A stretch of DNA of 64,000 nucleotides from contig NZ_JAVRCP020000024.1 of NCBI RefSeq assembly GCF_034530675.2, forward strand, positions 10,690 through 74,689, read 5' to 3'. This document shows, piece by piece, positions 10,506 through 61,562 of the stretch. Positions within the stretch are counted from its first letter, which is position 1, and the number at the start of each line of letters is the position of its first letter. Under the pieces are notes generated by a model. The model was not told the DNA's origin. It did not search any database and worked only from the letters and a program-made list of their open reading frames with translations. Position numbers and translations under genes: made by a program. This DNA comes from Nostoc sp. DedVER02 (GTDB lineage: Bacteria; Cyanobacteriota; Cyanobacteriia; Cyanobacteriales; Nostocaceae).

Positions 10506-12305
10506 GTGAATAACTACCAATTAATATATGCTATAAGAGTAAGTTTGTTGTGCTTACTTACTGCTTTCATTTCGCTGGGTGCATCACCTGCAAATGCTCA
10601 ACTCCTTGCTGACAATACTGTAAACAATTTTGAAAGCGCAGATAAAGATAACAGGAGTATCTTTTCAACTAATTCTAATTCTCTAGAATCTAATGCGATC
10701 GCTCAAGTAACATCTGTATCTCAATTATCTGATGTCAAGACAACAGATTGGGCTTTTCTTGCGCTGCAATCTGTAGTGGAGCGTTACGGTTGCATTGTGG
10801 GATATCCTGACAGTACTTATAAAGGGAATCGTGCCTTAAGCCGTTATGAATTTGCTGCTGGATTGAATGCTTGCTTAGATAGAATCAACGAACTGATTGC
10901 TACTAGCACTAATGATTTAGTTAAAAAAGAAGATTTAACTACTCTCCAAAAACTCCAAGAAGAATTTGCATCTGAACTTGCAACATTGCGTGGTCGAGTA
11001 GATGCCTTAGAAACTCGCACAGCTACCTTAGAGAAGCAACAGTTTTCTACCACAACTAAACTTAATGGCGAAGCGATTTTCTCTTTATCCACAGCTACAG
11101 GTGGAGAACCAGGTAGCCAAGATGCTAAATTAGCCTTCAATAATCGCGTCAGGCTCAATCTTACCAGCAGCTTTAACGGCAGTGATTTGTTGATTGTTGG
11201 ACTCCAAGCTTACAACTTCAGATCGAGCGGTTCGTTTTATGACAGAGGAACCATCCAAGGCCAATTACTGCCGAATTCAAGTCTTCTTGGCGCAGGTTCA
11301 ACCAAGTTAAGCTTTGAACCTCAATTTCCTGGTTTTAACCCCCAGACACTACAACCTGACGGCGGAGCAAATTCAGTTAGTCTTTACAAGCTAGCTTATG
11401 TCTTACCGTTGTCTCAGAAATTCGTTGTTTTTGGTGGCACAAATGCAGAGATTACAGATGTTTTTCCTGCCATCACTCCTTATGCTAGCGATAGTCAAGG
11501 TGCAATCTCTCGATTTGCAGGTTATAACGCCGCCGTCAGAATTACAGGCGGAACTTCTGGTACAGGTTTATTAGCGGGTGCTGGTTTCTTGTGGAATCCT
11601 TCAAAACAAGTGGGACTCGGAGTTATCTATGGAAGTGGTTCAGCTTCGATACCAGAAGATCGTGGTCTTTTGAACACACCTTTAGGAGGAGGTTTCTTTA
11701 ATGGTACACAAGCGATCGCTGCACAACTGACTCTTAAACCAATCTCAACTCTTGATATTGGCATCAACTATGCACACAGCTATCACACAATTAACATTCT
11801 AGGTACAGGCTTGGGTAGCGCTGATATTGCTTCTATTCGATTTACTCCCAATGCAGCACAACTGGCCAGAGTTGGTGGTGACGCTACACTAGCAACTCTT
11901 GATGAGCCAATCAATGTAAATTCTGTTGGTGCAACGGTAACGTGGCGGTTTGCGCCGAAAACATCTTTGTCACTATCAGGTGCGTTGCTTTTTGCTCATC
12001 TCTTGAATGTAGATGCTTCTACAACCTTTAGTAGCTGGTCGGCTGGGTTGCATTTTCGAGATATATTCCATGAAGGAAACACCGCCGCCGTCATTTTTGG
12101 ACAGCCGCTTTACCGACAATCTGTAGCGGGAAGTGCTTCTCGTCCAGAAGACACGACTCCCTACCATCTAGAAACGTTTTATAACTATCGCGTCAGTGAC
12201 AATATCTCCATTACCCCTGGCGTGTATTTCATCTTCAGTCCCGAAGGCTTTAGTGCTAATGACACAGCAATTGTAGGCGCACTTCGTACTACCTTTGCAT
12301 TCTAG
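10506..12305 (+). CDS. SLH-domain OprB/SomA-type outer-membrane porin
   Basis: Signal peptide, SLH domain (DWAFLALQSVVERYGCIVGYPDSTYKGNRALSRYEFA), a coiled-coil linker, and a beta-barrel-like C-terminal part ending in F. GTG start. Confidence 0.8.
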   Translation: MNNYQLIYAIRVSLLCLLTAFISLGASPANAQLLADNTVNNFESADKDNRSIFSTNSNSLESNAIAQVTSVSQLSDVKTTDWAFLALQSVVERYGCIVGYPDSTYKGNRALSRYEFAAGLNACLDRINELIATSTNDLVKKEDLTTLQKLQEEFASELATLRGRVDALETRTATLEKQQFSTTTKLNGEAIFSLSTATGGEPGSQDAKLAFNNRVRLNLTSSFNGSDLLIVGLQAYNFRSSGSFYDRGTIQGQLLPNSSLLGAGSTKLSFEPQFPGFNPQTLQPDGGANSVSLYKLAYVLPLSQKFVVFGGTNAEITDVFPAITPYASDSQGAISRFAGYNAAVRITGGTSGTGLLAGAGFLWNPSKQVGLGVIYGSGSASIPEDRGLLNTPLGGGFFNGTQAIAAQLTLKPISTLDIGINYAHSYHTINILGTGLGSADIASIRFTPNAAQLARVGGDATLATLDEPINVNSVGATVTWRFAPKTSLSLSGALLFAHLLNVDASTTFSSWSAGLHFRDIFHEGNTAAVIFGQPLYRQSVAGSASRPEDTTPYHLETFYNYRVSDNISITPGVYFIFSPEGFSANDTAIVGALRTTFAF

Positions 12306-12361
12306 AACACCAGTTTAGTAGAAGTTGGGATTGGGGACTATGAGCTATTTCGACACAAAGA

Positions 12362-12464
12362 GGTTTTTCAGGAACTTTACCTGTTGTCAGCTAATCTTTG
12401 TGCCAGTCCCCCATACCCAATATTGCGATCTAAGATTGTTGGGTATTCTATAAATTGCGATCGC
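12362..12464 (+). repeat. Dispersed ~100-bp element, copy 2 (same orientation as copy 1)
   Basis: ggtttttcaggaactttacctgttgtcagctaatctttgtgccagtcccccatacccaatattgcgatctaagattgttgggtattctataaattgcgatcgc. Ends 10 nt before the ABC ATPase start. Confidence 0.85.
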
Positions 12465-12474
12465 CACTATACCG

Positions 12475-13479
12475 ATGATCGAAGTTGAACATCTAAGTAA
12501 AATATACGGCTCTACTCCAGCGATTACTGATGTTACTTTTAGCGTCGAACCTGGGGAAATTTTAGGGTTGTTAGGGCCTAATGGCGCTGGGAAAACCACA
12601 ACCATGCGGATTCTGGCTGGTTATTTACCGGCAACAAATGGAAATGCCCGAATTGCTGGTTATGACGTCCATGAAAATTCCCTGGCTGTGCGCCAACGAA
12701 TTGGTTACTTACCCGAAACACCGCCGTTATATCCAGATATGACGGTGGAGGGATTTTTGCATTTTGTCGCCCAAATTAAGGGAGTTCCAGCAGGCGATCG
12801 CCCCAACAAGGTATTAGCCGCTATCAAACGCTGCAACTTAGAAGATAAGCGGCGGGTAATTATTCGCAAACTCTCTAAAGGATACCGCCAACGTGTCGGA
12901 ATTGCTCAAGCGATCGTCCACGATCCACCAGCAATTATTCTCGATGAACCCACCGTTGGACTCGATCCTCGACAAATCATAGAAGTGCGGAATTTAATTA
13001 AAAGTCTTGCTGGTACTCACACAATCATTCTTTCCACGCACATTCTCCCAGAAGTGAGCATGACTTGTAGCCGCGTCGCCATCATCAATCGCGGCAAAGT
13101 TGTGGCAACTAATACACCAGAAAGCTTGATGACTCAGTTGACAGGTGGCTCAGGATATGAATTAGAAATAGAAGGAGAAGCTGCCTTAGCCAAACAGGTG
13201 TTGCAAAATGTTCCAGGTGTTAGTTTGATAGAATCGATTCCCACCGCTGGAGGACATCAACCGCAGACAAATCGTGCTTACCTGCGAGTGATATCGCAAC
13301 CGGGAAAAGAACCAGGAAAAGATATTGTTGCCACATTAGTACGTGCAGGCTTTGGTTTACATGAACTGCGGCGAGTCAACGCTACCTTAGAAGATGTATT
13401 CTTGCAACTAACCACAGAAGAAAAAAATTTCGAGACTGAGGTAGACTTAGCAGCAGACCAAGAAGGAGAAGCAGCGTAA
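12475..13479 (+). CDS. ABC transporter ATP-binding protein (ABC-2/GldA-like)
   Basis: Walker A GPNGAGKTT, signature LSKGYRQR, Walker B IILDEPT. Confidence 0.85.
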   Translation: MIEVEHLSKIYGSTPAITDVTFSVEPGEILGLLGPNGAGKTTTMRILAGYLPATNGNARIAGYDVHENSLAVRQRIGYLPETPPLYPDMTVEGFLHFVAQIKGVPAGDRPNKVLAAIKRCNLEDKRRVIIRKLSKGYRQRVGIAQAIVHDPPAIILDEPTVGLDPRQIIEVRNLIKSLAGTHTIILSTHILPEVSMTCSRVAIINRGKVVATNTPESLMTQLTGGSGYELEIEGEAALAKQVLQNVPGVSLIESIPTAGGHQPQTNRAYLRVISQPGKEPGKDIVATLVRAGFGLHELRRVNATLEDVFLQLTTEEKNFETEVDLAADQEGEAA

Positions 13480-14292
13480 ATGGGTGTAGTGCTGAGTAAT
13501 ATTATTGCCATTTATCGCCGAGAGTTACAGAGTTATTTTGTATCGCCTTTAGCTTATGCGATCGCAGGCATATTTTGGTTTATCGCCGGGTTATTCTTCG
13601 TGATGATTTTGCTAGGGCCAGACGGCATTTTGGTAGGAGTCGCGGCAATAGATGCACAAGGGCAACAACTCGGAGTGCCAACACCGCCGATAGATGTCCC
13701 CTATGAATTTGTCCGAGCGTTTTTAGATCGTATGGGGTGGCTATTGTTGTTTATCTTGCCGATTCTCTCAATGGGACTCTATGCCGAAGAACGGAAGCGC
13801 GGCACTTTAGAACTATTAGCCACGTCACCAATCACCAACTGGGCGGTAGCTGTAGGTAAGTTATTAGGTGTGCTAACATTTTTTACCACGATGGTTGTAC
13901 CCATGTTAGTGTTGGAAGCGATCGCAATCAGTGGATCGAATCCACCAATGGCATTCTCAATTCCCTTGCTGGGTCATTTTGGATTAATCTTACTAGCAGC
14001 AGCAATTTTATCTGTAGGAATGTTTATTTCCTCCTTAACAGACAGTACAATTCTGTCTGCGGTCTTCACATTTGCAGTAATTTTATTATTGTTATTGATT
14101 GATTTAATCGCCAGAATTGTCCCTGGGCCAGTAGGTGAAGCTTTAGGTTATCTGTCCTTGCTGAAACATTACAACACCTTAATTCAAGGGATTTTTGATA
14201 CCAGCGCCTTAATTTTATTCGCCAGTTACATTTTTTTGGGCATCTTTCTCACCGCTCAATCAATTGATGCATTGCGCTTTCAAAGGCAATAG
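13480..14292 (+). CDS. ABC-2 type transporter permease (GldF-like)
   Basis: The start abuts the ATPase stop (TAA ATG). About 6 TM segments. Confidence 0.7.
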   Translation: MGVVLSNIIAIYRRELQSYFVSPLAYAIAGIFWFIAGLFFVMILLGPDGILVGVAAIDAQGQQLGVPTPPIDVPYEFVRAFLDRMGWLLLFILPILSMGLYAEERKRGTLELLATSPITNWAVAVGKLLGVLTFFTTMVVPMLVLEAIAISGSNPPMAFSIPLLGHFGLILLAAAILSVGMFISSLTDSTILSAVFTFAVILLLLLIDLIARIVPGPVGEALGYLSLLKHYNTLIQGIFDTSALILFASYIFLGIFLTAQSIDALRFQRQ

Positions 14293-48262: not shown

Positions 48263-51200
48263 TTACTGACTGGTGATATCATCGCAGAGGTAGCGATCGT
48301 TTTTCATATTAGGGTTATTTTTCAGATAACCAGATGCCAACTTACAGGCACGCTTGAGTAAATCATCTAAATTATCATTAAGATATATTTTTCCCTCATT
48401 GCTATTAAGCTCAATTGTCTTATTGGTATTAAGGTTAAATCGATCGCCTAAGAAAGAACTGATGGGATAGAGTAAGTAAGGATCTTTCGTAAACCAACTA
48501 TTCAGAAAATATAGACCTGTATTAGAATCAGAACCAACAGCCAGCATTCTGTTGTAATTATCAAAACTTAAGGTATAACTACTATAATCAGTCTTTAATG
48601 GTTCAACTTTTCCATTATCTAAATTCCACAATTTAGCCGAAGATCCACTAACAAAGGCAATCTTTTTATCATCAGCTTGGAAGCGTATATTTGTAATTTT
48701 ATCAGGATCAGAAATGGTTGGTTTTTGTAATTTACCATCAAGATTCCAGAGTCTTATAATTTTGTCATCACTAGCGGAAGCAATAATTTTTCCATCATGA
48801 GTGAAACTCACGCTATTGACTTTATCACTCTGTTTTATAATCGGTTTAAGCAATTTACCATTTCTATTCCAAAACCTTACTGTTTTGTCGTCACTAGCAG
48901 AAGCGATGATTTTTTTATTAGGGCTGAATACAACACTATTAACCCAATCAGTATGACCCGATAAGGTTGCTAGCGGCTTGCCTTTTAAATTCCAGAGTTT
49001 TAAACTATCATCTTTACTAACGAAAGCAACTGTTTTTTTATTAAAATTAAACCTAATCAAAGAATCTATATTATTACATAAAACATTGACATGACCTTTA
49101 ATAGATTTTAACTCTTGAAAATTGGCATTATCTTCAATACTCCAAAACTTCATAATATACTTAGAACGATAAATATCATTCGACAAATAAGTTTTGCAGC
49201 TAGTAGCACCAATGATTTTTCCATCAGCACTAAAGCTAACCTTATCAATGCTAATATCATCATTTGGTTTATTACCAAATCCTGAAAGTGGTTTGATAAA
49301 ATTACCGTTGCTGTTATAGATATTCACAGTGTTATCAGCACTGGCAGAAGCAATGTATTTGTTATCAGAACTAAACGCAACATCATTAACACCTTTAATG
49401 TGCTTTTGTAAAGTCAGAGGTTCATAGTTGGATTTTTTAAGCAAAAGCTGGTTTATATCCCAAATCTTTATAGTATTATCAGCACTGCTAGTTACAATTT
49501 TTGTACCATCAGGGCTAAAATCTACTTTCGTGATTGTGTCATTATGTCCTTTGAGTGTTGGGCGTGGTTCTCCCTCAACAGTCCATAGGTTGACAGTATA
49601 ATTCTTGTTAATAGAAGTAATGTACTTGCCATTAGGACTAAATTTAGCGCTGATCATGATATAGTTCTCAAGAGATTGAGGTGGTTGGCTATTGCTGATA
49701 TCCCAAATTTTTATCTCACCACTATTAGCGCTAACTGACATGATCTTTTTGTCATTTGGACTAAACTCTACGCTTTGTACCTTGGAATTATGCCCAATCA
49801 ATGGCTTAAGGGGAGTACCATCACTTTTATAGAGTTTGACTAAATTGTCATCGCCGAGAGCAAGCATCTTGCTATCATGACTAAATATAACACTTGTGAC
49901 TTTATCACTATCTACTTTTAAGGCTTGAATTAAACTGCGATCGCGGCTATTCCAAAGTTGCACTTTATTGTCATGACTGATAGTAGCTATTATCTGACTA
50001 TTAGGGCTAAAGCTCACATTGGTAACTTGTTTTGTGTCTCCCTTTAAATGTCCTATAAATTTTCCGTCACTACTGCGCCAGAGTCTAACAAAATTATCTG
50101 CACTGGCACCAGCAACCAAATTACCATCAGGGCTAAAGTCAATGGTTGTGATCTTATTGGTGCTACCTTTTAAAGTAATTTCCTTGTTGGTATCTAGTTT
50201 CCAGAGCTTTAAGATATCGTCAGAGCTTCCAGTTGCAAGGGTTTGATTATCTGGACTAAAGCTAAGAATTGAACTATCTCCTGGGATAGTTTTGATGTGA
50301 GTGCCATTACGGTTTTGAAGTTCTATACTATTGTCAGAACTACCAAGAGGGACTGTTTGACCATCAAAACTAAACTCTATTTTCCTATTTGTATCTTCAT
50401 ATCTATCGGTTCTCTGGAATGAGGATAATTTATTGTTCTCAATATCCCAAATTTTCACAACTCCATCTTTACTAGCTGATGCAAGTAGCTTGTTATCAGG
50501 ACTAAAGCTTGTATAAGTAATACTATCATCATGTTTAAAATTATTGTAAATAGAACATTGAGCTTGAAACATTCTAGTTCTGTATAAACTTTTCTTATCT
50601 TCACTCTCCTGGAATATGACCGATTGGTTATCAAAACTATTATTTATAAAATCTCCCAATCCAAATGAATTCTTACAACCATTCTCAACACTTTTGATGA
50701 GGTGTGGTTTATCACCAGTAGACCAAACTCTTAGATTTCCCTGTTTATTAAACAAGCTAATAGCGTCACCATTGTTATTGAAATTCATGGTAAATGTGCC
50801 AGAATCATAAATCTCAATAGGCTTATTTTCAATTTTTTTTGGTGTAAGTTTCCAAAGTTTAACAGTGTCATACCGTCCCCCTGTAGCAACTGTCTTGTTG
50901 TCAGGACTAAAACTTACAATTATGTTTTTGTCATTAAATCTTTGTGGTAAATTTAAGAGTTTACCATCTTGCCAACTCCAAATTTTAACTGTTTTATTCT
51001 TAGTGGTAGTGGCTAGTAGTTTATCGTTAGGGCTAAATGTAATAAAGCCTAGACCATCTTTATCAATTTTCAAAATTTTTATTGGTTTAAATTCAGCAGT
51101 ACTCCAGTTTTTACCTTCAGGAATATTCCAGATTTTTGCATTACCATCTTGGCTGACGGTAGCTAACATTTTTCCATCCGAGTTGAAGCTAATAGATGTT

Positions 51201-54200
51201 ACACTTTTTTTGTGAGCTGACCAGCTTCTTTCTTGACCATCAGAAATATTCAATATTTTGACTTTGCCATCTTCACTTGCCGTAGCTAACATTTTGCTAT
51301 CTTGGCTAAAACTAAGGACTGTAATTGCTTTATTATCGTACCCTTCTACACGGTTGATTTCTTTAATTTTCTGAATTGCATTACCCAGATTTGAAATAAC
51401 CTTTAGCCGAGTTTCAGGTATCACCCCTATTGATAAAAACTTCAGTTTTTTACCTACTTTAATAGCTGATACTAGCTCTTCAAGCCCTATGTCATCTTTT
51501 GAAGAAATATCTGATGTCAGGGAAGTGTTGATGTAAGCTGCTGTAACTCCTACTGCGATTACACTTATTGCACTTATTAATCCTATTAATGTAACAGTTT
51601 GTTTGCGTGCAGTTCTTAGCTGTTGTGTCAAAACCTGATTGAGTTTGGCTTCGGTGAGTTTTCGTTGTTCTTTTTCTTTCTCCAATTCAGCAATTAATCG
51701 GGCTGATTGTTGTTCACGAACAAATGGTACTAGATAGTCATGAACCAATTGATATCTGTCAGCCGGAAATCCTGGCACTTGAAATACTAAGCCTGATTTC
51801 ACTAGGATTTTCAAAATTAAATCTAATCTTGCAGGCTCTAATGCTAAATCTGCTTCTAATTCAGCACGATTTTTCAGAGGACGAGTATTATTTTCATCAG
51901 TTAACAAATACAAAACTAGCTTGGCGAACTGTTCGTTATTGTTACCACAATCTTTAACTACTTCTTCTAAGAAGCGCCCTACCAATTTTTCTTTAGGGCC
52001 TTGTTCTTGGTACTGAATCAAAGTTGTAATTTTCTCAGTTTGCAGTTGCGCTCCTACAACTTGTAATTCAATGGGGCGAATTTCGTTGAAATCTCTAGCT
52101 AAATCTCGTACTAGCTCATCAATTAGCGGTGGCTCTAGGTAAAACTGAGAACTTTCAGTTAAGCTTTGAATTACAGAGCGAGCATCTTCCGGCGAAAAGT
52201 TCCCTAAGTAATAAAGAATTTTTTTATCTAATATGTTGTTATCAATTGCATCCAAATGGGTTAAGCGATTACACTCTAGTAAATAATGGAGATAATCTTC
52301 TCTAAGAGACAGAATAATTTTTACATAAGGAATATTAAGACAATCTCGGATAAATTCAAAAAACGGTCTCCTTTTATCTTGGTCTTTATAAGCAAAAAAG
52401 AACTCTTCAAACTGGTCAAAAATCAGAACAGTTAACAAACCTTTCTCTATATTTTTATTCAACTCTTCTACAAAACCTGCCATTGAGTCTAAAAACAGAG
52501 GAAAGCTTAAGCCTCTAACTTCTTCTAGTGATTCTACTAAGCGACTTCCTAAAAGTTTTGTCCAATCTGTATAAACTTGCAAAAGAACAGGCACAACATC
52601 ACGAGCATCTATGGCTCTTTGTTTTAAAGCTGGTAATAATCCTGCCTGAACCAGGGAACTTTTACCTACTCCTGATTGACCATAAATGACCGTCAATTTG
52701 TGGTCATCACGACTGATTCTTTCAATCAATCGATTCACATCTTGCATTCTTCCAGAAGCAGCAATCTCTTGGGTTACTGCTGCTTTTGGATCGGCCACTG
52801 CAAGTCCAGGATTAATAACTTGGAGTTTAGATTGTAAGCGTCCTGCACCTACAAAAGCTCGTAATCCATACTGTTGCTCAATTGAACGTTGCTCTAGTTT
52901 AACTTGGAATGCTTCTAAATAATTACCTTGGTCAAAGTAGAGCGATCGCAGTTTCGCCAAAATGCGAATATATAGCAGTGGATCGTGTTGAGGATTACTT
53001 TCAGAATGAGCGGTTTCTAAATTAGCGATCGCCTCTGGAACCTGATTAATATTTTGTTGAGCTTCTGCTAATAAAAGTAAGTATAAATTTTTATAAAATT
53101 TGTGTTCCCACTCACAATTAATTATTTCTTCTGAGGAAATATTGGCATTCGTTTGTAATGCTAGTTCTGCATATTCTTTAGCCTCTTCCCATTGAGATTT
53201 TTTCAGCAATACCTCAGCCATGAATCCATAACTGTAGGCAAGTCTGATTGGTTCAGGGTAAGTTTGGTGTAGCTCAATAGCTACTAACGCAACTTTTTCT
53301 AACTCATCGTACGCTTCTAATCTGGTTAAAACTTCACCCCAAGCGTTAATAAATTTTGCTGCTAAATCTGGGTATTTTTGCTGCCTAAAACCCTCAACAC
53401 ATTTTTGAAAGTAATCTTTAGCTTTTAGGCAAGCTTCGTAATATTCAGAACGATGCAAAATCGCATACTGTTCCCACCAAAAACCAAGATGCCAAAGTAA
53501 ACATCCGTAACGTTTCAAATCATCAGATGATAGATTTTGGTTATTTTTGACTTTCTTTTCCCAAACAGCTATACTTTGATCATAATAATTTTTCGCTTCA
53601 GATTTATGTCCATTAGCATCTGCTTCCCGACCTAGCAAAAATTGTAAGCTTGCCTCTAGTTCAGGCTCTAATTTTTCTATAGATATTTGTAAATCTCTAA
53701 CAGCAGAATCAATTTCCCCTAAATGGAGAATACCAAGGTCAAGATTTAAGTAAGCATTATCCACAAACTTTCCAGCACCGACATTAATAATTGCTGCAAA
53801 TAGGGAATTAACAATTTGGTGCAGATTGTTGATTAACTGATTCGTAGCAATTTTAAACTTAATTGAGTTACCTGTCCAACTCTTAAAGTCAGGCATTAAT
53901 TGAATCAATTTTTGGAAGGTTTGATCATTTACCCAAATAACTATGGGAAACTGGAAATTCTTACGAAACTCCTCTCTTACCTGATTTGTAGAAATTAAAA
54001 GTTGGTCAATTGCATCTACTAATTCCAAATCAAATATCATCAAAGCTTGAGGTAGTTGATTTCCCAGGTTAGCTTCAATTGTTGTATAAAGTGTTTTGAT
54101 AGATTTTGACAGATGTAGCTCTCGAATCTCAACTTGACATTCTTGCTTGATCTGCTGCACCATCTGGTCTCGCAAACTGCAATAGTTACAACGTGCCAAA

Positions 54201-54304
54201 ATTAACGCAAAGTGTCCCTGAGAATTCGTAATTGAGCGGATTAGTTTTTTCAGGGAGCGTTCATTGTAGACAGCTACATCTTCAGGTTGATAAGAGTCAC
54301 TCAT
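48263..54304 (-). CDS. Giant STAND-type NTPase (2013 aa): degenerate NTPase-like N-domain, TPR-like repeats, active P-loop NTPase, winged-helix-like region, TM helix, ~1000-aa WD40 array
   Basis: Walker A YGQSGVGKSSLVQAGLLP (nt ~52655-52681), Walker B-like LTVLIFDQFEEFF. TM helix TVTLIGLISAISVIAVGVTAAYI (nt 51533-51598). Many SFSPD(G/N)K...(L/I)W WD40 units. The C-terminal LDDLLKRACKLASGYLKNNP tail is typical of cyanobacterial NTPase-WD40 proteins. Confidence 0.8.
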   Translation of the reverse strand: MSDSYQPEDVAVYNERSLKKLIRSITNSQGHFALILARCNYCSLRDQMVQQIKQECQVEIRELHLSKSIKTLYTTIEANLGNQLPQALMIFDLELVDAIDQLLISTNQVREEFRKNFQFPIVIWVNDQTFQKLIQLMPDFKSWTGNSIKFKIATNQLINNLHQIVNSLFAAIINVGAGKFVDNAYLNLDLGILHLGEIDSAVRDLQISIEKLEPELEASLQFLLGREADANGHKSEAKNYYDQSIAVWEKKVKNNQNLSSDDLKRYGCLLWHLGFWWEQYAILHRSEYYEACLKAKDYFQKCVEGFRQQKYPDLAAKFINAWGEVLTRLEAYDELEKVALVAIELHQTYPEPIRLAYSYGFMAEVLLKKSQWEEAKEYAELALQTNANISSEEIINCEWEHKFYKNLYLLLLAEAQQNINQVPEAIANLETAHSESNPQHDPLLYIRILAKLRSLYFDQGNYLEAFQVKLEQRSIEQQYGLRAFVGAGRLQSKLQVINPGLAVADPKAAVTQEIAASGRMQDVNRLIERISRDDHKLTVIYGQSGVGKSSLVQAGLLPALKQRAIDARDVVPVLLQVYTDWTKLLGSRLVESLEEVRGLSFPLFLDSMAGFVEELNKNIEKGLLTVLIFDQFEEFFFAYKDQDKRRPFFEFIRDCLNIPYVKIILSLREDYLHYLLECNRLTHLDAIDNNILDKKILYYLGNFSPEDARSVIQSLTESSQFYLEPPLIDELVRDLARDFNEIRPIELQVVGAQLQTEKITTLIQYQEQGPKEKLVGRFLEEVVKDCGNNNEQFAKLVLYLLTDENNTRPLKNRAELEADLALEPARLDLILKILVKSGLVFQVPGFPADRYQLVHDYLVPFVREQQSARLIAELEKEKEQRKLTEAKLNQVLTQQLRTARKQTVTLIGLISAISVIAVGVTAAYINTSLTSDISSKDDIGLEELVSAIKVGKKLKFLSIGVIPETRLKVISNLGNAIQKIKEINRVEGYDNKAITVLSFSQDSKMLATASEDGKVKILNISDGQERSWSAHKKSVTSISFNSDGKMLATVSQDGNAKIWNIPEGKNWSTAEFKPIKILKIDKDGLGFITFSPNDKLLATTTKNKTVKIWSWQDGKLLNLPQRFNDKNIIVSFSPDNKTVATGGRYDTVKLWKLTPKKIENKPIEIYDSGTFTMNFNNNGDAISLFNKQGNLRVWSTGDKPHLIKSVENGCKNSFGLGDFINNSFDNQSVIFQESEDKKSLYRTRMFQAQCSIYNNFKHDDSITYTSFSPDNKLLASASKDGVVKIWDIENNKLSSFQRTDRYEDTNRKIEFSFDGQTVPLGSSDNSIELQNRNGTHIKTIPGDSSILSFSPDNQTLATGSSDDILKLWKLDTNKEITLKGSTNKITTIDFSPDGNLVAGASADNFVRLWRSSDGKFIGHLKGDTKQVTNVSFSPNSQIIATISHDNKVQLWNSRDRSLIQALKVDSDKVTSVIFSHDSKMLALGDDNLVKLYKSDGTPLKPLIGHNSKVQSVEFSPNDKKIMSVSANSGEIKIWDISNSQPPQSLENYIMISAKFSPNGKYITSINKNYTVNLWTVEGEPRPTLKGHNDTITKVDFSPDGTKIVTSSADNTIKIWDINQLLLKKSNYEPLTLQKHIKGVNDVAFSSDNKYIASASADNTVNIYNSNGNFIKPLSGFGNKPNDDISIDKVSFSADGKIIGATSCKTYLSNDIYRSKYIMKFWSIEDNANFQELKSIKGHVNVLCNNIDSLIRFNFNKKTVAFVSKDDSLKLWNLKGKPLATLSGHTDWVNSVVFSPNKKIIASASDDKTVRFWNRNGKLLKPIIKQSDKVNSVSFTHDGKIIASASDDKIIRLWNLDGKLQKPTISDPDKITNIRFQADDKKIAFVSGSSAKLWNLDNGKVEPLKTDYSSYTLSFDNYNRMLAVGSDSNTGLYFLNSWFTKDPYLLYPISSFLGDRFNLNTNKTIELNSNEGKIYLNDNLDDLLKRACKLASGYLKNNPNMKNDRYLCDDITSQ

Positions 54305-55605
54305 AGTTTAAATTTCTTCGATTCTGCGATCGCTGGGTTAATATCAAACCAGCGTCCATCAACATCCCGGTATTCAAATAAAAACATACTTCGTAAAAGA
54401 GTTTGGTATTCGTCCTCTCCTTTGACATTATCCCTCTGTTGCAAAACCTGTAGCAGTAGCGCCCACTCGCTATCACTAATTGCTGATACCAAATCATCCC
54501 GATACTCGCGGATGACCATTTCCAGACAGTTCCGCCCAATAGGGGGATCACCTTCTTGCAAGCAACTGTAAAGTAAAACTAACAGATTTCGCACATGTCC
54601 ACCACTAACTCGGCAAAGACGATCTAAGGTTTCATCTGAATCAAAAACTTCATTAATATGACTCAAACGTTGCGTTTCTCCTAGCCAGGGAAACGCCCGT
54701 GCTAAAACCATTTGTTGTAGTAGCTTCATACCTTCTAGGTTGTAGGTTCCCTCACGATTCTTGACTGTCACCATTGGTAATACTACAGGTTTGATCCCGA
54801 AACGATTAGTAAGAGTGCTTAATTCATTGGAGAAAATTAACACTAGAGGAATGGTATAAACCAAATGACAATTGAGTTTTTTTAACTGCTCACCCCGATC
54901 AATGAATAGATATTCTGGTTGAGAACGACCAGAGGCTTTAGGAGAGATATCGACGCGATCAAGATTATCAATAATTACCACTAATCCTTGATAACCTTGT
55001 AGCTTCAATTGCTCTTTAGCACGCTCTAGTACCTGTTGATTAATAGCTTCTAATATGCCACTAGTCCGAGGTTCTAGGTATTGGCGCAACTGGCTCCGCA
55101 GCCTGGGACTATCTTTAGTCTTGGCAGTGACTTTACCAATTCCCAAAGGTAATGAAAATTCAAATTCTGGAACTACTGGTGTTTGTAAAAAATCCGCAAT
55201 TTCATTAAACAAATCGACAAAATAGCTTGGTCTAAGTTTGATTTTAACCTTTTCTAAACTGGCGCTAACTTGACGAGTTATTGCTAACAAAATATCGCTG
55301 ACATCCACATCTGCCATATCTAAATCAGCACTGGACTCAAAGTAGACTACATGAAAGCCTTGCTTTTCTAATTCATCTTTGAGTCGAAATAGTTCTGTAG
55401 ATTTACCACAGCCAATATGTCCAGTGAATAATTGGCAGGTTGACTCATCTGGTTGATTAGCAATCGTCCGCCGTAAACGTTGAATTACATTGCCTCCACG
55501 CACTGGCGAGAAGTCAATATAGTACTGTTGGTCTTCTTTATTCTCAATTTTTAAAGTCTTACTGGGATTACAGGCATTAAAAAACTTAATAGGGTCTAAA
55601 GCCAT
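54301..55605 (-). CDS. P-loop ATPase (STAND/AAA-like), translationally coupled to the giant NTPase-WD40 gene
   Basis: Walker A TGHIGCGKSTELFRL, Walker B-like LVVIIDNLDRVD, helical C-terminal half. Its stop overlaps the downstream start (ATGA at 54301-54304). Confidence 0.65.
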   Translation of the reverse strand: MALDPIKFFNACNPSKTLKIENKEDQQYYIDFSPVRGGNVIQRLRRTIANQPDESTCQLFTGHIGCGKSTELFRLKDELEKQGFHVVYFESSADLDMADVDVSDILLAITRQVSASLEKVKIKLRPSYFVDLFNEIADFLQTPVVPEFEFSLPLGIGKVTAKTKDSPRLRSQLRQYLEPRTSGILEAINQQVLERAKEQLKLQGYQGLVVIIDNLDRVDISPKASGRSQPEYLFIDRGEQLKKLNCHLVYTIPLVLIFSNELSTLTNRFGIKPVVLPMVTVKNREGTYNLEGMKLLQQMVLARAFPWLGETQRLSHINEVFDSDETLDRLCRVSGGHVRNLLVLLYSCLQEGDPPIGRNCLEMVIREYRDDLVSAISDSEWALLLQVLQQRDNVKGEDEYQTLLRSMFLFEYRDVDGRWFDINPAIAESKKFKL

Positions 55606-58054: not shown

Positions 58055-58831
58055 CTAATTCCTTATATCCCACATATCTTGGTAAATTGGATGGATTTCA
58101 CGCACTAATTTCCATAAACGACGTCTTGCTCGGTAGGCATACCAAACTAAAATGACTAAAGTCTGCCAACTCATCAATATACAAATATTTTGAGTTCCTA
58201 GTGCAATAGCGATAACTAGAAACCCAAATAAAAAGACACGAAGCATTTCATGGGGTAGTCCTTCTAACCACTTACTTTTAGTATAACGATAAACAAAATA
58301 GGGTATCCAGACACTAACCACTTGTGCTACAAACAACATTGACCCAATAATATTGGTTTTTGTCACTACAAGAAAACCAAATGACTTGTAAGTTTGCAAT
58401 ACAAAGTAAAGCCAAGTTCTTGTCTGCTTATCAATATAGTTGTAAACAAAGAAACTTAGGCGTACAACCAGGAGTAAACCTATCCATAATGCCATTTTAA
58501 CTAAAGCTGTTTTTAAATCTAGGGTGCTAACAATGGAAGCCAAAGTAACATCACTTGAGACAACTTTAGCCAATTCCAAAATAATTAGCCCAGGGACAGC
58601 AAAAATTACAGCCCAAATCCAAGCCTGCCATACATTGATTCGGTTCTTGTACTGTTGGTAAGTTGCTGATAGGACTGGTTTTTTCTCAAACCGTTCAGCA
58701 ACTATGTCATTTTCTACATAGCCTAGTTCATAGATGCACCAGAAAGAAAGTAATACAAAAAACATACCAGTGGCATGAATAAGAGGGAGCATCCACTTTT
58801 GGCAGAAACACTCAAATAGCAAGTAAACCAT
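58055..58831 (-). CDS. Multi-pass membrane protein, N-terminally truncated by the IS (the first ~16 codons are IS-derived)
   Basis: About 7 hydrophobic segments. Codons for MVYLLFECFCQKWMLP lie inside the IS left end and its inverted repeat. Native sequence begins near 58784. Confidence 0.4.
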   Translation of the reverse strand: MVYLLFECFCQKWMLPLIHATGMFFVLLSFWCIYELGYVENDIVAERFEKKPVLSATYQQYKNRINVWQAWIWAVIFAVPGLIILELAKVVSSDVTLASIVSTLDLKTALVKMALWIGLLLVVRLSFFVYNYIDKQTRTWLYFVLQTYKSFGFLVVTKTNIIGSMLFVAQVVSVWIPYFVYRYTKSKWLEGLPHEMLRVFLFGFLVIAIALGTQNICILMSWQTLVILVWYAYRARRRLWKLVREIHPIYQDMWDIRN

Positions 58832-59967
58832 TCAGATAAGCACAACGAACAGAAAGGATTTGGTTGACACTCCCAACATTCCACTGTGCGCCAGAAATTT
58901 TCATCCTAGCTCCAATCTGTTTAATAGCAGACTCGACTGCACCAGAACCAATAGAACAAAGTTGTTCAGCTTGGTAATAAGTATAGTTGACAATACGGGA
59001 GCAATGTTTTTCGAGATAAGCGATGAAGTTCTTAGCTTGTTTGCCTCGGCAATTATGAAATAAAGCCTTGGCTTCTTCAACTTGACCCTGCCATAAAAGA
59101 GTTTCAGCTGCTTTGAGTCGCTTTAAAGAACCACCCACTTTGTAAAGATTTTCCTTGAGATGATACCAATCTAAAATTTCCCAACGCTCAAAATTCTCAC
59201 TTTTACCAAACTCTTTGACGAGATTCCATACACCATCATGACCATCTCCTAAGCAGACTAACGGGTTAACTAGACGCTGGCTATTGATATAATCAATTAA
59301 TGATTGGTTGTCATCAAAAAACGCACCATAGTAAATCCCTTGCAGACGAACGGTTTTATAGTCTCGCCAGTGACAGCCTGCTTTCGGTTTACCCCTAAGT
59401 CGGACTTTTCCTCCATCTACGCTAACTTCTGAAACTGATTGTTTAGCAAGTGGTAGTTGAAAATCTTGTGACATGACTAGTTGTTGTTGTGTTGAGTGAC
59501 CAACTTTTACTCCTGTCAATGCCTCAATCTCGATTTCTGCTTTTTGGTAGGATTCGTTAGCTGATAACCTCAAACAGCACTTTTGAAGTAATGGACAAAA
59601 GCTTCCTTCTTGGCTTTAAACCTAGTCTAATAAGCTGTTTGGCTTTTAATTTCAGTTCCCCTACTAGGCTTTTTATTTTCCTGGTTTTACCTACTTTTGT
59701 TCCAGTTTTTTGTTCGATAAAAAAAGGGCTATTTCTGGGCTGACTAATTCTAATACTTGACTGCGAACTGTTTTTTCTATGCCTTCGAGGTCTGCCAGCT
59801 TACTTTTATCTGCTTCTTCATACAGCAGTGTTGACAATTCTTGTAAGCAGGCTTTGATCCGTTCTTGTTTCTCTTGGTTCATTGTCAGCGATCGCACAGG
59901 GTTCTTTCCCTTTACATTTTCCCATAAATGGTAAATCTTCCAAAACTGGATGCTCCCCATGTGTTCA
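58785..59967 (-). mobile_element. ISKra4-family insertion sequence (~1.18 kb) with terminal inverted repeats
   Basis: IRs are gggagcatccacttttgg (58785-58802) and ccaaaactggatgctcccc (59949-59967), matching at 17 of the 18 aligned positions. Internal transposase motifs include LSANESYQKAEIEIEALTG, GGKVRLRG, LGDGHDGVWN and ILDWYHLKENL. Confidence 0.7.
58812..59882 (-). pseudogene. ISKra4-family transposase, reading frame broken at least twice
   Basis: Three frame segments: 59691-59882 (MNQEKQERIKA...), ~59578-59690 (VGKTRKIKSLVGELKLKAKQ...) and 58812-59573. Confidence 0.6.
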
Positions 59968-60901
59968 ACTTCAAAACAGATCAGGAAAAGCGAAACAAGA
60001 CATCATATTAGAGAAATGCTATAGAAATTCTCGCCCACTCCTAACTTCTGCACATGCTTTGGGTTTTGGAATATATAGAAATGAAGGATTAATCCAAATG
60101 TTTGATGATGCAGGATTATGGAGAGATATTGGTTACGAAGTAGAAGAAGGAAACTTAGATGAAGGAAAGCCTGTAAAGCTTAGTAGAACTAGCGATACTA
60201 GTCCAATATTCCTTGAATCTCACTCAACTATTGATGACTTAATTATATTTAAGTCATTTAATAATAGCCACGAACAAAATGAATGGTTAGTCAATGAAAT
60301 AGAGAAGAACATTAGAGAAGATGAATTAAAGTATGATGACATAATGATTATTCATTCTAACCCGTTTACAACTAAAGATGCCGTTGGAAGCTCTAGGGCT
60401 TTACTCTTTGAAAGAAAGATTAATTCTAACCTAGCTGGAGTAACGAATTCCCGTGATGAATTTTTTAGTGAAGAAGCAGTCACTTTCACGGGTATCTATA
60501 GAGCAAAGGGAAATGAAGCTGCGATGATATATGTTATAAATGCCCATTAATGCTTTTCTGGTACAGAGCTTTCTCAAAAAAGAAATATCTTGTTTACTGC
60601 CATGACAAGAAGTAAAGCTTGGTTAAGAGTATTAGGCTATGGTGAAAATATGAGGGGTTTGGTGAAAGAATTTGAAGAAGTTAGAAAAAGAAACTTTGTT
60701 CTTGAATTTACCTATCCTACAGAAAAAGAACGAATAAGAATGAATGTTATCAATAGAGATATGAGTCCTAAAGAGCGTGAGCGTAGAAGTCAGAACCAAA
60801 GAAATTTAAAAGATATTGTTGAAGATTTAGACAATGGTGTTATACACAAAGAAGATTTGCCACAAGAACTAATAGAAAAATTGAAAAATTACCTACTTTG
60901 A
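59968..60901 (+). pseudogene. SF1 (UvrD/AAA_30-like) helicase, C-terminal half only, with an in-frame TAA at 60548-60550
   Basis: CYRNSRP (motif IV-like), VTFTGIYRAKGNEAAMIYVINA, then after the stop, in the same frame, NILFTAMTRSKAWLRVLG (motif VI-like). The N-terminal ATPase half is missing at the IS boundary. Confidence 0.6.
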
Positions 60902-60902
60902 A

Positions 60903-61562
60903 ATGACTAGTCATCAAGAAATTTATAAAGAAATTAATACCATAACTCAAAAACTAATAGAAGTTAGTTTGTGTGACCAACAAAATTTTCCGTCATCTAC
61001 ATCTATTGGTAAAGATAGTTATGAGATTGCATATTCTGGTATGCAGGATCTCTCAATAGCACTGAAAAATATTGATTACAAGGACATATATCATGAACTA
61101 AACAGAGGTAAAAACTACAACTTCAAAATGATTGATGGTGCGTTAATACAACTTTTGTATACTTATAAAAAGTCCGAGCTAATTTCACATAGGCTTGCTT
61201 TTTTACCATCACCATTTTTAGAAGTTTTCCAGAATGAGCCTACAATTTATGAAGAAGACGAAATATATGCAGATATAATAGCAAAAAATATATTACCAGT
61301 ACCAATTAGGTTCGATTATGATCCAGACAATCATAAAGAATTAGATCACCCCAAATGCCATCTAACCTTGGGACAATTTAAAAATTGTAGAATACCTGTT
61401 TGTTCCCCAATCGCACCGAGTACTTTCATATCCTTTATTATTCGTAGTTTTTACAATACTGCTTTTAGAAAATTTACAGATGATCTTACTTTTTCAAGCA
61501 ACCTTTTCGACAAAACGATAGCTGATGCAGAGAAGAAAGTATTGCACATAGCTATTTATTAA
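60903..61562 (+). CDS. Hypothetical protein, DUF2290-like helicase partner (assignment from memory)
   Basis: 219 aa, starting 1 nt after the helicase stop. HPKCHLTLGQFKNCRIPV resembles the conserved core I recall for DUF2290. Confidence 0.35.
   Translation: MTSHQEIYKEINTITQKLIEVSLCDQQNFPSSTSIGKDSYEIAYSGMQDLSIALKNIDYKDIYHELNRGKNYNFKMIDGALIQLLYTYKKSELISHRLAFLPSPFLEVFQNEPTIYEEDEIYADIIAKNILPVPIRFDYDPDNHKELDHPKCHLTLGQFKNCRIPVCSPIAPSTFISFIIRSFYNTAFRKFTDDLTFSSNLFDKTIADAEKKVLHIAIY

What the first reader, a model, noticed from the sequence alone, without database searches (positions are those of the whole stretch)
51533..51598. Single predicted TM helix separates the NTPase half from ~1000 aa of WD40 repeats
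TVTLIGLISAISVIAVGVTAAYI is a 23-residue hydrophobic helix. It is preceded by a basic patch (LRTARKQ) and a coiled coil, and followed by the entire WD40 array.

By the positive-inside rule, the NTPase would be cytoplasmic and the roughly 24-blade WD40 sensor extracytoplasmic. STAND sensors normally bind cytoplasmic ligands. A periplasm-facing WD40 array coupled to a cytoplasmic STAND switch would be a different signalling logic, such as surface or envelope sensing.
Basis: inference. Interest (0 to 1): 0.65.

Follow-up and report, generated by a model that had tools for sequence, protein, structure and literature searches.

The report
Membrane-spanning STAND ATPase with exported WD40 arm
A giant Nostoc signalling ATPase is crossed by one real-looking membrane helix, a feature shared by most of its relatives, so its WD40 "sensor" arm probably sits outside the cytoplasm, which is unusual for a protein class known as intracellular sensors but still untested experimentally.

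Summary
Residues 903-925 (window 51530-51598, minus strand) of a 2013-aa ORF form the protein's only strongly hydrophobic segment. It lies between an nSTAND1 NTPase (residues 518-859) and 22 WD40-like units (990-1988).

The single sequence is only suggestive. The comparative evidence is strong:
- 176 of 202 evaluable homologues carry a non-conserved but hydrophobic segment at the same position.
- K+R counts favour the N-terminal flank in 154 of those homologues and the C-terminal flank in 3.
- In some relatives the WD40 arm is replaced by CHASE2, Cache plus a second TM helix, or ARC6-IMS domains.
- WD40 arms behind the helix are purged of cysteine: median 2.9 per 1000 aa against 10.5 in their own N-terminal halves. 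Arms of TM-less paralogues are not.

This is a family-wide trait of filamentous cyanobacteria, not a local oddity. A 434-aa ATPase gene is conserved immediately upstream. TM-less and tail-anchored variants also exist.

Function, ligand and output are unknown, and no defence-system model matched at a convincing score. TM-bearing bacterial NACHT proteins were already predicted to sense periplasmic signals, so I rate this a new variant of a known kind. Interest is moderate to high.

The parts
54301..55605 (-). Upstream partner gene: a 434-aa P-loop ATPase with weak AAA_22, ATPase_2, NPHP3_N and KAP matches. Its stop codon overlaps the start of the large ORF (ATGA).
   Evidence: Pfam. Overlap read directly. 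Found immediately upstream of the homologous gene in at least 65 of 79 loci, including TM-less ones.
48263..54304 (-). The whole 2013-aa ORF: alpha/beta domain, TPR, nSTAND1 NTPase, long helix, TM helix, linker helices, WD40 array and Cys cap.
   Evidence: Intact full-length orthologues of 2018-2066 aa occur in Nostoc, Leptolyngbya and Tolypothrix (L001-L003).
53780..54277 (-). N-terminal alpha/beta domain (residues 10-175) with alternating strands and helices. Its family is not identified. It may be an output or adaptor domain.
   Evidence: AF2 model m9ef113985949, pLDDT about 75-90. No Pfam match.
52871..53722 (-). Cytoplasmic TPR superhelix (residues 195-478).
   Evidence: AF2. Foldseek matches to LGN and KLC TPR domains, E = 7e-8. 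Weak TPR_12 match.
51728..52753 (-). nSTAND1 NTPase module (residues 518-859). It includes Walker A GQSGVGKS (residues 542-549, window 52658-52681), the conserved FDQFEEFFF motif, and the winged-helix motif RYQLVHDYLV.
   Evidence: PF20703, 113.3 bits against a cut-off of 27.1. Motif conservation.
51602..51745 (-). Long cytoplasmic helix (residues 854-901) ending in the basic patch RTARKQ. It may form a coiled-coil stalk.
   Evidence: AF2 helix H55-102 in the model of residues 800-1345. Sequence.
51530..51598 (-). The finding itself: the single transmembrane helix TVTLIGLISAISVIAVGVTAAYI (residues 903-925), with G907xxxA911 and G918xxxA922 motifs.
   Evidence: Present at the aligned position in 176 of 202 homologues, with positive-inside bias. 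In the family the segment is rich in Ala, Gly and Ser, and 162 of 170 distinct segments contain a small-xxx-small motif.
51356..51484 (-). Juxtamembrane linker helices (residues 941-983), including the conserved LxxLVSAIKxGKKL motif. TM-less paralogues share this motif.
   Evidence: AF2 helices 941-956 and 963-983. Same motif in TM-less relatives.
48497..51337 (-). WD40 array (residues 990-1936): 21 recognisable units with an irregular 51-aa gap at 1207-1257. The first propeller is modelled with pLDDT 80-94. I predict this arm is extracytoplasmic.
   Evidence: Pfam WD40 and beta-propeller families. Self-HMM repeat count. AF2.
48266..48460 (-). C-terminal degenerate unit and cap NLDDLLKRACKLASGYLKNNPNMKNDRYLCDD, with the conserved Cys pair C1987 and C2007.
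   Evidence: The motif LDxLLxxGCxWxxDYLxxNPxxxxSDRxLC recurs in TM+ and TM- relatives. In 39 of 68 TM+ arms these two are the only cysteines.

Best explanation
**What it is.** The segment is a genuine single-pass signal-anchor helix. It splits a two-gene cyanobacterial STAND system across the cytoplasmic membrane.
- The N-terminal 900 residues stay in the cytoplasm: an alpha/beta domain, a TPR array, the nSTAND1 NTPase, a winged helix and a long helical stalk. The co-encoded 434-aa ATPase is cytoplasmic too.
- The C-terminal roughly 1090 residues are translocated to the periplasm, or less likely the thylakoid lumen. They comprise the linker helices, 22 WD40 units forming about three propellers, and a Cys-pair cap.

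**Shown by computation.** The helix, its conservation, its orientation signals, and the export-like composition of the arm.

**Inferred mechanism.**
- The sensor arm cannot fold back on the NTPase as it does in cytoplasmic STANDs. The signal must therefore cross the membrane through the helix.
- The most likely route is ligand-induced clustering or re-packing of the Gly/Ala/Ser-rich TM helices and the stalk. That would drive nucleotide-dependent oligomerisation of the NTPase modules at the inner face of the membrane.
- The assembled NTPases would then engage the TPR and N-terminal domain and the partner ATPase as output.

**Modularity.** The extracytoplasmic module is swappable: WD40 in most relatives, CHASE2, Cache, ARC6-IMS or TPR in some, and none in tail-anchored relatives. 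The conserved core is a membrane-tethered NTPase plus its partner ATPase.

**Unknown.** The ligand and the biological role (defence, kin or damage sensing, or envelope surveillance).
For: **Hydrophobicity**
- This is the only Kyte-Doolittle window >=1.6 in 2013 aa (2.32). It is a 23-residue stretch with no charged or strongly polar residue.

**Conservation of character, not sequence**
- 176 of 202 evaluable homologues have such a segment 29-140 aa (median 48) after the RYQLxHDYL motif.
- Mean pairwise identity among these segments is only 15%.
- Most 'ambiguous' cases (Kyte-Doolittle 1.36-1.8) behave like TM+ proteins in the cysteine test.

**Orientation**
- K+R in the 15-aa flanks averages 4.7 on the N side and 2.1 on the C side. 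The N side is higher in 154 proteins, equal in 19 and lower in 3. Wilcoxon p = 1e-27.

**Domain swaps at the same position**
- CHASE2 in 3 cluster representatives, E = 1e-52 to 1e-64.
- A Cache/PDC domain followed by a second TM helix.
- An ARC6-like IMS domain.
- One relative with two TM helices followed by a cytoplasmic protein kinase.

**Cysteine purge**
- In 92 non-redundant TM+ proteins the arm has a median of 2.9 Cys per 1000 aa, against 10.5 in the same protein's N-terminal part. The arm is lower in 89 of 92, p = 2e-16.
- In 8 TM- proteins the arm has 15.9 against 12.2, and is lower in 1 of 8.
- 39 of 68 TM+ arms with the cap contain exactly two cysteines, the conserved cap pair.
- The query arm has six cysteines, spaced as three pairs.

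**Structure**
- AF2 gives a long helix, then a low-confidence isolated helix, then linker helices and a confident propeller. That pattern is what one expects of a membrane segment with no soluble packing partner; contacts in the model were not inspected.

**Other relatives and precedents**
- Four genomes have tail-anchored relatives that end 4 aa after the helix. This shows that membrane tethering of the NTPase is itself selected.
- The same TM-linker-WD40-cap cassette follows caspase-nSTAND1 and AAA_35 modules.
Against: - No dedicated topology predictor and no experiment were available. All the evidence is compositional or comparative.
- The single-sequence hydrophobicity is not statistically exceptional. 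8.7% of shuffles reach the same Kyte-Doolittle maximum.
- TM-less paralogues have the same linker helix, WD40 array and Cys-containing cap. The arm therefore needs no extracytoplasmic setting, and the cap cysteines cannot be a disulfide in those proteins.
- The TM- comparison set for the cysteine test is small: 8 clusters, two of which are the same Moorena gene. Repeat amplification also makes cysteines within one arm non-independent.
- Exporting about 1090 aa behind a 900-aa cytoplasmic domain is demanding.
- AF2 confidence over the helix is low, pLDDT about 45.
- No effector domain was recognised. The only matches to known defence-system models were weak and partial: a WD40-region hit to HEAT-ARM_XIII, a marginal mad3 hit, and PDC-S20 at E = 0.001 for the upstream ATPase. 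The neighbours are housekeeping genes. The signalling output is a guess.
Confidence: 0.75

Rival explanations
1. The helix only tethers the protein. It is a membrane anchor, peripheral, re-entrant or otherwise not translocating, and the WD40 arm stays in the cytoplasm and senses cytoplasmic ligands like an ordinary STAND.
For: TM-less paralogues carry an identical linker, WD40 array and cap. Tail-anchored relatives show that anchoring alone is functional. STAND sensor arms normally act by direct contact with the NTPase (established knowledge).
Against: A 21-23-residue uncharged helix cannot form a hairpin, and the protein has only one such segment. The strong positive-inside asymmetry, the CHASE2, Cache and ARC6-IMS domains at the same position, and the arm-specific cysteine purge would all be left unexplained.
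Confidence: 0.1
2. The hydrophobic segment acts as an internal, cleavable export signal. The WD40 arm is exported and then released by signal peptidase as a soluble periplasmic protein, physically uncoupled from the NTPase.
For: Many family members end the segment with small-x-small residues followed by Trp or Tyr (VTA-W, VSA-W; query VTAA-Y). This resembles an AxA signal-peptidase motif. It is my reading of the sequences and was not run through a predictor.
Against: The hydrophobic core is 19-30 residues, which is typical of a signal anchor rather than a cleaved signal peptide. The fusion of NTPase and arm is conserved over hundreds of genes. CHASE2 and Cache variants have further TM helices and are typical integral receptors.
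Confidence: 0.07
3. The segment is not in a membrane at all. It is a buried hydrophobic helix, for example the core of an oligomeric helical bundle that continues the preceding coiled coil, in a fully soluble cytoplasmic protein.
For: It directly follows a 48-residue helix. It is rich in small residues that favour helix-helix packing. The Kyte-Doolittle score alone is reached by 8.7% of shuffles.
Against: Buried soluble helices usually keep their sequence and some polar positions. Here only the hydrophobicity is conserved (15% identity), over 19-30 residues with no charge. The flanking charge asymmetry, the domain swaps and the cysteine purge all point to a membrane. AF2 does not model the segment with confidence.
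Confidence: 0.05
4. The topology is as proposed, but the protein sits in the thylakoid membrane, so the WD40 arm faces the thylakoid lumen rather than the periplasm.
For: Cyanobacteria have two Sec-competent membrane systems. Nothing in the sequence tells them apart (inference).
Against: The CHASE2, Cache and ARC6-IMS domains found at the same position in relatives are associated with the cell envelope or periplasm (established knowledge of those families). No direct evidence exists either way.
Confidence: 0.1

Closest known systems
Cytoplasmic STAND-WD40 proteins (Apaf-1 type; TM-less nSTAND1-WD40 paralogues such as L031, L017 and L046)
   Same: NTPase with Walker A and a winged helix, followed by a C-terminal WD40 propeller array. 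The TM-less paralogues even share the same linker helix, the same C-terminal Cys cap and the same upstream ATPase gene.
   Different: A membrane helix lies between the NTPase and the sensor, so autoinhibition by sensor-NOD contact is impossible. The arm is cysteine-purged. The protein also has a second repeat array (TPR) N-terminal to the NTPase.
Antiphage STANDs (Avs, bNACHT), including the 'TM regions' class of bacterial NACHT C-termini (Kibby et al., preprint 10.1101/2022.07.19.500537; Kaur et al. 2020/2021)
   Same: A STAND engine in a prokaryote. The literature already predicts that some TM-bearing NACHT proteins sense intramembrane or periplasmic signals.
   Different: That class is described as having multiple TM regions that themselves act as the sensor. 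Here a single helix is followed by about 1000 aa of WD40. The NTPase is nSTAND1, not NACHT. No recognised effector is present, no PADLOC defence-system model matched convincingly (only weak partial hits), and there is no defence-island context.
DGR-diversified NACHT-CLec target predicted to be periplasmic in Thiohalocapsa PB-PSB1 (Dore et al. 2024, PMC10907252)
   Same: A STAND protein of a multicellular bacterium whose sensor domain is predicted to lie in the periplasm.
   Different: In that protein both the NACHT and CLec domains are predicted to be periplasmic. Here the NTPase and the sensor lie on opposite sides of the membrane, the sensor is WD40, and no DGR is involved.
Single-pass bacterial receptor kinases with extracellular beta-propellers (e.g. 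M. tuberculosis PknD with an NHL propeller); cyanobacterial metacaspase-TM-CHASE2 (Asplund-Samuelsson et al. 2012, PMC3501461)
   Same: N-in/C-out single-pass topology. A cytoplasmic enzyme or switch is coupled to an extracytoplasmic ligand-binding domain. Activation probably works by clustering or dimerisation (established knowledge).
   Different: The cytoplasmic module is an oligomerising STAND NTPase plus a partner ATPase, not a kinase or caspase. The external arm is far larger.
Extracytoplasmic WD40-class propellers (EsrA1 of Schaalia odontolytica, preprint PMC13622651; Synechocystis Slr1410, annotated 'periplasmic WD-repeat protein')
   Same: WD40-type propellers outside the cytoplasm, acting or proposed to act as sensors of external cues.
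   Different: Per the EsrA1 paper, that protein is exported by an N-terminal Sec signal and is not fused to a cytoplasmic NTPase; I assume the same for Slr1410, which I did not check.

Membership tests
nSTAND1 clade of STAND NTPases (Pfam PF20703) | Profile match above the curated threshold | tested here: met
   113.3 bits against a cut-off of 27.1, residues 518-859.
nSTAND1 clade of STAND NTPases (Pfam PF20703) | Intact P-loop (Walker A GxxGxGKS/T) and an acidic Walker B region | tested here: met
   GQSGVGKSS at residues 542-550. LIFDQFEEFFF is nearly invariant in alignments.
nSTAND1 clade of STAND NTPases (Pfam PF20703) | Winged-helix module after the NTPase, and superstructure-forming repeats C-terminal to it | tested here: met
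   The RYQLVHDYLV motif is invariant. AF2 shows a helix-strand-strand element before the stalk. 22 WD40 units follow.
nSTAND1 clade of STAND NTPases (Pfam PF20703) | Nucleotide-dependent switch and oligomerisation | not testable with these tools
   Needs biochemistry.
Single-pass N-in/C-out (signal-anchor) membrane proteins | One hydrophobic stretch of at least 19 residues without charges | tested here: met
   A 23-residue segment with Kyte-Doolittle mean 2.32. It is the only such segment in the protein.
Single-pass N-in/C-out (signal-anchor) membrane proteins | Positive-inside charge asymmetry | tested here: met
   In the query, 3 K/R on the N side against 1 on the C side. In the family, means of 4.7 against 2.1, with N higher in 154 and C higher in 3.
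Single-pass N-in/C-out (signal-anchor) membrane proteins | Call by a trained topology predictor (DeepTMHMM, Phobius, TMHMM) | not testable with these tools
   None is installed. Only Kyte-Doolittle and a recalled Hessa-scale sum were computed.
Single-pass N-in/C-out (signal-anchor) membrane proteins | Experimental topology (reporter fusions, protease accessibility) | not testable with these tools
   No experimental data were found in the literature searches.
Exported (extracytoplasmic) bacterial protein domains | Cysteine depletion, or paired cysteines, relative to cytoplasmic counterparts | tested here: met
   TM+ arms have 2.9 Cys per 1000 aa against 10.5 in their own N-terminal parts (lower in 89 of 92). 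TM- arms have 15.9. 39 of 68 TM+ arms keep only the cap pair. The TM- control set is small.
WD40 beta-propeller (PF00400) | Multiple repeats above threshold that fold into propellers | tested here: met
   PF00400 at E = 8.5e-116 with 12 stretches. 22 units found by self-HMM. The first propeller is modelled at pLDDT 80-94.
Known antiphage defence systems (PADLOC models, Avs, bNACHT) | Match to a defence-system model, or a recognised effector domain or defence-island context | tested here: not met
   PADLOC gives a partial hit over WD40 repeats only (HEAT-ARM_XIII, E = 1e-21, 3 stretches, best 1762-1860), a marginal mad3 hit (E = 0.0012), and PDC-S20 at E = 0.001 for the upstream ATPase. No effector domain was found in Pfam. 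Neighbours are ribD, an MBL-fold protein, an aminotransferase and glycosyltransferases.

The most novel reading that the evidence does not exclude
Filamentous cyanobacteria may run a large, diversified class of 'inside-out NLRs'. These would be STAND switches (nSTAND1 with TPR, caspase or AAA_35 heads) whose WD40 arms patrol the periplasm. In these organisms the periplasm is continuous along the filament. The arms could therefore detect phage components, envelope damage, or molecules released by infected or dying neighbour cells. They would trigger a cytoplasmic STAND response before, or even without, invasion of the sensing cell. That would be a receptor-like layer of multicellular bacterial immunity or kin surveillance, working by transmembrane clustering rather than by relief of intramolecular autoinhibition.
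Probability: 0.2. Interest if true: 0.85.

Novelty: new variant of a known kind. Interest (0 to 1): 0.6.

Why it matters
STAND/NLR proteins are the textbook intracellular pattern-recognition switches. Their accepted mechanism needs the sensor arm to touch the NTPase.

A family numbering hundreds of genes places the sensor across a membrane from the NTPase (658 cluster representatives at E < 1e-30, at least 497 genomic loci). That would require a different activation logic, such as transmembrane clustering, and would extend STAND signalling to periplasmic or envelope cues.

The family offers natural controls:
- TM-less paralogues with the same arm.
- Tail-anchored members with no arm.
- Members with CHASE2 or Cache in place of WD40.

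These make the question experimentally tractable in model Nostoc or Anabaena strains. The cysteine-purge signature is a simple, general sequence test for predicting which bacterial repeat arrays are exported.

Tried and rejected
- **Single-sequence statistics.** The shuffle test showed that the Kyte-Doolittle score alone is not significant, so I moved to comparative evidence.
- **C-terminal Cys pair as a localisation marker.** Rejected, because TM-less paralogues have the same pair. Only the cysteines outside the cap discriminate.
- **Sequence search of solved structures.** Run for the cytoplasmic half and for the upstream ATPase. Only ClpC P-loop matches and designed repeat proteins came back, which is uninformative.
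- **NCBIfam and PADLOC.** No meaningful family or defence-system assignment.
- **Foldseek on the N-terminal model.** TPR matches dominated, so the residue 10-175 alpha/beta domain stays unidentified.
- **A second genome scan seeded with a TM-less linker.** It was meant to enlarge the TM- control set. It mostly returned TM+ cassettes behind other heads. That was useful for generality, but the TM- set stayed small.
- **Promoter and terminator scan** at the 3' end of the gene. Nothing above the shuffle expectation.
- **Literature searches** for an explicit description of nSTAND1-TM-WD40. None was found, only conceptual precedents.
- **One script timed out** and was rerun with a lighter clustering step.
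Full report
**1. The observation**

On the minus strand, window 51533-51598 translates to TVTLIGLISAISVIAVGVTAAY. With the next codon the segment is TVTLIGLISAISVIAVGVTAAYI, residues 903-925 (window 51530-51598) of a 2013-aa ORF at 48263..54304.

- It is the only 19-residue window in the protein with a Kyte-Doolittle mean of at least 1.6. Its value is 2.32 and the runner-up is 1.41.
- A plain sum of Hessa-scale values, which I recalled from memory, gives about -0.2 kcal/mol. The next best window elsewhere in the protein gives +7.9.
- The N-flank LNQVLTQQLRTARKQ carries three K/R and net charge +3. The C-flank NTSLTSDISSKDDIG carries one K/R and net charge -2.
- Pfam places an nSTAND1 NTPase at residues 518-859 (113 bits; cut-off 27) and WD40/beta-propeller families from about residue 990 onward.
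- A self-trained repeat HMM finds 22 WD40-like units between residues 990 and 1988, with one irregular 51-aa gap.

Taken alone the helix is not statistically remarkable. 174 of 2000 shuffles of the protein reach the same Kyte-Doolittle maximum. Only 6 of 2000 reach a 23-residue run free of charged or strongly polar residues. The case therefore has to rest on comparative evidence.

**2. Source and relatives**

The nearest genomic match (97% identity) is a Nostoc sp. MAG. The best 79 genomic loci come almost entirely from filamentous cyanobacteria, among at least 497 matches.

An exhaustive HMMER search with residues 505-960 finds 658 cluster representatives at E < 1e-30. Full-length orthologues of 2018-2066 aa exist in Nostoc, Leptolyngbya and Tolypothrix.

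**3. Is the helix conserved?**

I anchored each homologue on the invariant winged-helix motif RYQLxHDYL and looked for a hydrophobic segment downstream.

- 176 of 202 evaluable homologues have a Kyte-Doolittle segment of at least 1.6, lying 29-140 residues (median 48) after the motif. The uncharged span is 19-30 residues.
- The sequence itself is not conserved: mean pairwise identity is 15%. The character is conserved. The segments are rich in Ala (19%), Gly (12%) and Ser (9%), and 162 of 170 distinct segments contain a small-xxx-small motif.
- Several 'negatives' with Kyte-Doolittle 1.4-1.6 visibly contain a weaker hydrophobic helix. So 87% is a lower bound.

The refutation condition 'absent from close homologues' is therefore not met.

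**4. Which way does it face?**

Four independent lines agree on N-in/C-out.

(a) Positive-inside rule across the family.
- K+R in the 15-residue flanks averages 4.7 on the N side and 2.1 on the C side.
- The N side is higher in 154 proteins, equal in 19 and lower in 3. Wilcoxon p = 1e-27.

(b) Domain swaps. 143 of 176 TM+ homologues continue into WD40. Others carry different domains at the same position:
- CHASE2 in three cluster representatives (E = 1e-52 to 1e-64), followed by further hydrophobic helices.
- A Cache/PDC domain closed by a second TM helix.
- An ARC6-like IMS domain.
- In one case a second TM helix followed by a protein kinase domain, which must be cytoplasmic.

These are textbook extracytoplasmic modules, or in the kinase case a hairpin that restores a cytoplasmic location.

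(c) Cysteine purge.
- After clustering to 115 non-redundant proteins, the arm behind the helix has a median of 2.9 Cys per 1000 aa. The same protein's N-terminal part has 10.5. The arm is lower in 89 of 92 proteins, p = 2e-16.
- In TM-less paralogues the arm has 15.9 against 12.2, and is lower in 1 of 8. The N-terminal parts of the two classes do not differ, p = 0.43 (first seen).
- Among TM+ arms that end with the conserved cap, 39 of 68 contain exactly two cysteines, the cap pair. Cysteines outside the cap number 1.1 per 1000 aa, against 11.9 in TM-less arms.
- The query's arm has six cysteines at residues 1210, 1250, 1703, 1743, 1987 and 2007. They fall into three pairs spaced 40, 40 and 20 residues apart.
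- Selection against stray cysteines is a known property of exported bacterial proteins (established knowledge).

(d) There is only one hydrophobic segment in the protein, so the two halves must lie on opposite sides of the membrane.

An AF2 model of residues 800-1345 is compatible with this. It shows a 48-residue helix (854-901), a break, then a low-confidence helix over the hydrophobic segment. Two linker helices (941-956 and 963-983) follow, and then a confident propeller with pLDDT 80-94.

**5. Anatomy of the system**

- The large ORF's ATG overlaps the stop codon of an upstream 434-aa ORF (ATGA).
- That upstream ORF has weak AAA_22, ATPase_2, NPHP3_N and KAP P-loop matches. It lies immediately upstream of the homologous gene in at least 65 of 79 loci, including TM-less ones.
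- The cytoplasmic half of the large protein starts with an unassigned alpha/beta domain (residues 10-175).
- A TPR superhelix follows (residues 195-478). AF2 gives pLDDT 82, and Foldseek matches LGN and KLC TPR domains at E = 7e-8.
- After the TM helix comes a linker motif (LxxLVSAIKxGKKL).
- At the very C-terminus is a cap, LDxLLxxGCxWxxDYLxxNPxxxxSDRxLC. TM-less relatives have both elements too.

**6. Variants that inform the mechanism**

- Four genomes encode relatives that stop four residues after the helix, with no WD40 gene downstream. These are tail-anchored NTPases.
- TM-less paralogues replace the helix with a polar helix (RAEIAEIxALxxxSxAL) and keep the rest of the arm.
- The same TM-linker-WD40-cap cassette follows caspase-nSTAND1 heads, bare nSTAND1 heads and AAA_35 heads. 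One AAA_35 example is in the same Nostoc MAG as the window's closest match.

The conserved core is therefore a membrane-tethered NTPase plus its partner ATPase. The outside module is interchangeable.

**7. How it most likely works**

The steps in this section are inferred, not shown. The NTPase and the sensor are separated by a bilayer, so the canonical STAND mechanism cannot apply. In that mechanism the sensor clamps the NOD until a ligand releases it.

The most economical alternative is the logic of single-pass receptors:
- A ligand binds the external propellers.
- Binding changes the association of the small-residue-rich TM helices and the cytoplasmic stalk.
- This concentrates or re-orients the NTPase modules for nucleotide-dependent oligomerisation.
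- The TPR and N-terminal domain and the partner ATPase provide the output.

What is sensed, and what the output does, are unknown. No effector domain was recognised, no known defence-system model matched beyond weak partial hits, and the neighbouring genes are housekeeping.

**8. Rivals**

- Tether only, with a cytoplasmic arm. This fails to explain the charge bias, the domain swaps and the cysteine purge.
- A cleaved internal signal that releases the arm. It is suggested by small-x-small endings such as VTA-W and VTAA-Y, but the hydrophobic core is of signal-anchor length and the fusion is conserved.
- A buried soluble helix. This is inconsistent with conservation of hydrophobicity alone.
- Insertion in the thylakoid membrane rather than the plasma membrane. 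This cannot be resolved from sequence.

**9. Comparison with what is known**

- The protein is a bona fide nSTAND1 STAND NTPase with a WD40 arm (membership features met).
- Kaur et al. defined nSTAND1 but do not describe this TM-split architecture.
- Dore et al. predict a periplasmic NACHT-CLec DGR target.
- Asplund-Samuelsson et al. describe cyanobacterial metacaspase-TM-CHASE2 proteins with an extracellular receptor domain.
- Extracytoplasmic WD40-class propellers have precedents in EsrA1 and in the Synechocystis 'periplasmic WD-repeat protein' annotation.

The concept is therefore foreshadowed. I found no description of three things: the specific and very common single-helix nSTAND1/WD40 split, its conserved partner ATPase, and the compositional evidence for export.

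**10. Verdict**

- It is a family-wide trait and a new variant of a known kind.
- Function is unknown. Interest is 0.6.

Noticed in passing
window 54301-55605 (-): A 434-aa P-loop ATPase gene overlaps the start of the large ORF (ATGA). It is conserved immediately upstream in at least 65 of 79 homologous loci, whether or not the TM helix is present. It is probably an obligate partner, with no known family assignment.
   Followed up: partly
window 48266-48373 (-); residues 1978-2013: Conserved C-terminal cap LDxLLxxGCxWxxDYLxxNPxxxxSDRxLC with two invariant cysteines. It closes the WD40 arms of both TM+ and TM- relatives. In most TM+ arms these are the only cysteines.
   Followed up: partly
window residues 1210/1250, 1703/1743 and 1987/2007 of the ORF (about 50555-50677, 49076-49198 and 48284-48346): The six cysteines of the arm fall into three pairs spaced 40, 40 and 20 residues apart. 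The first two pairs lie in or next to the irregular blades of the array (the 1207-1257 gap and units 1682-1732/1743-1782). They may be disulfides.
   Followed up: no
L067, L073, L078 and L079 (gene ends near nt 11300, or 2970 in L073): Rivularia/Calothrix-type relatives end four residues after the TM helix and have no WD40 gene downstream. These are tail-anchored NTPases without any external arm.
   Followed up: partly
L028, about nt 11583-13571: The WD40 arm of the Potamolinea homologue continues in a different reading frame from the NTPase-TM part. This is a frameshift, either a pseudogene or a sequencing error.
   Followed up: no
L098 (same Nostoc MAG as L001); L091, L093, L110, L096: The same TM-linker-WD40-cap cassette is attached to AAA_35 heads, caspase-nSTAND1 heads and bare nSTAND1 heads. 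The exported WD40 arm looks like a mobile module in cyanobacteria.
   Followed up: partly
L022 and L077: Contigs binned as 'uncultured Acetobacteraceae' (a lichen metagenome) carry Nostoc-like copies of this gene at 64% and 44% identity. They are probably mis-binned cyanobiont contigs.
   Followed up: no
window 53780-54277 (-), residues 10-175: A confidently modelled alpha/beta domain with alternating strands and helices and the conserved motif FxLILxRCNY. It has no Pfam match. It is a candidate output or adaptor domain, or a degenerate P-loop-like domain.
   Followed up: partly
window 60903-61562 (+): A DUF2290 gene (E = 5e-68) lies next to several ORFs with no Pfam match (58055-60550). It appears unrelated to the finding.
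   Followed up: no
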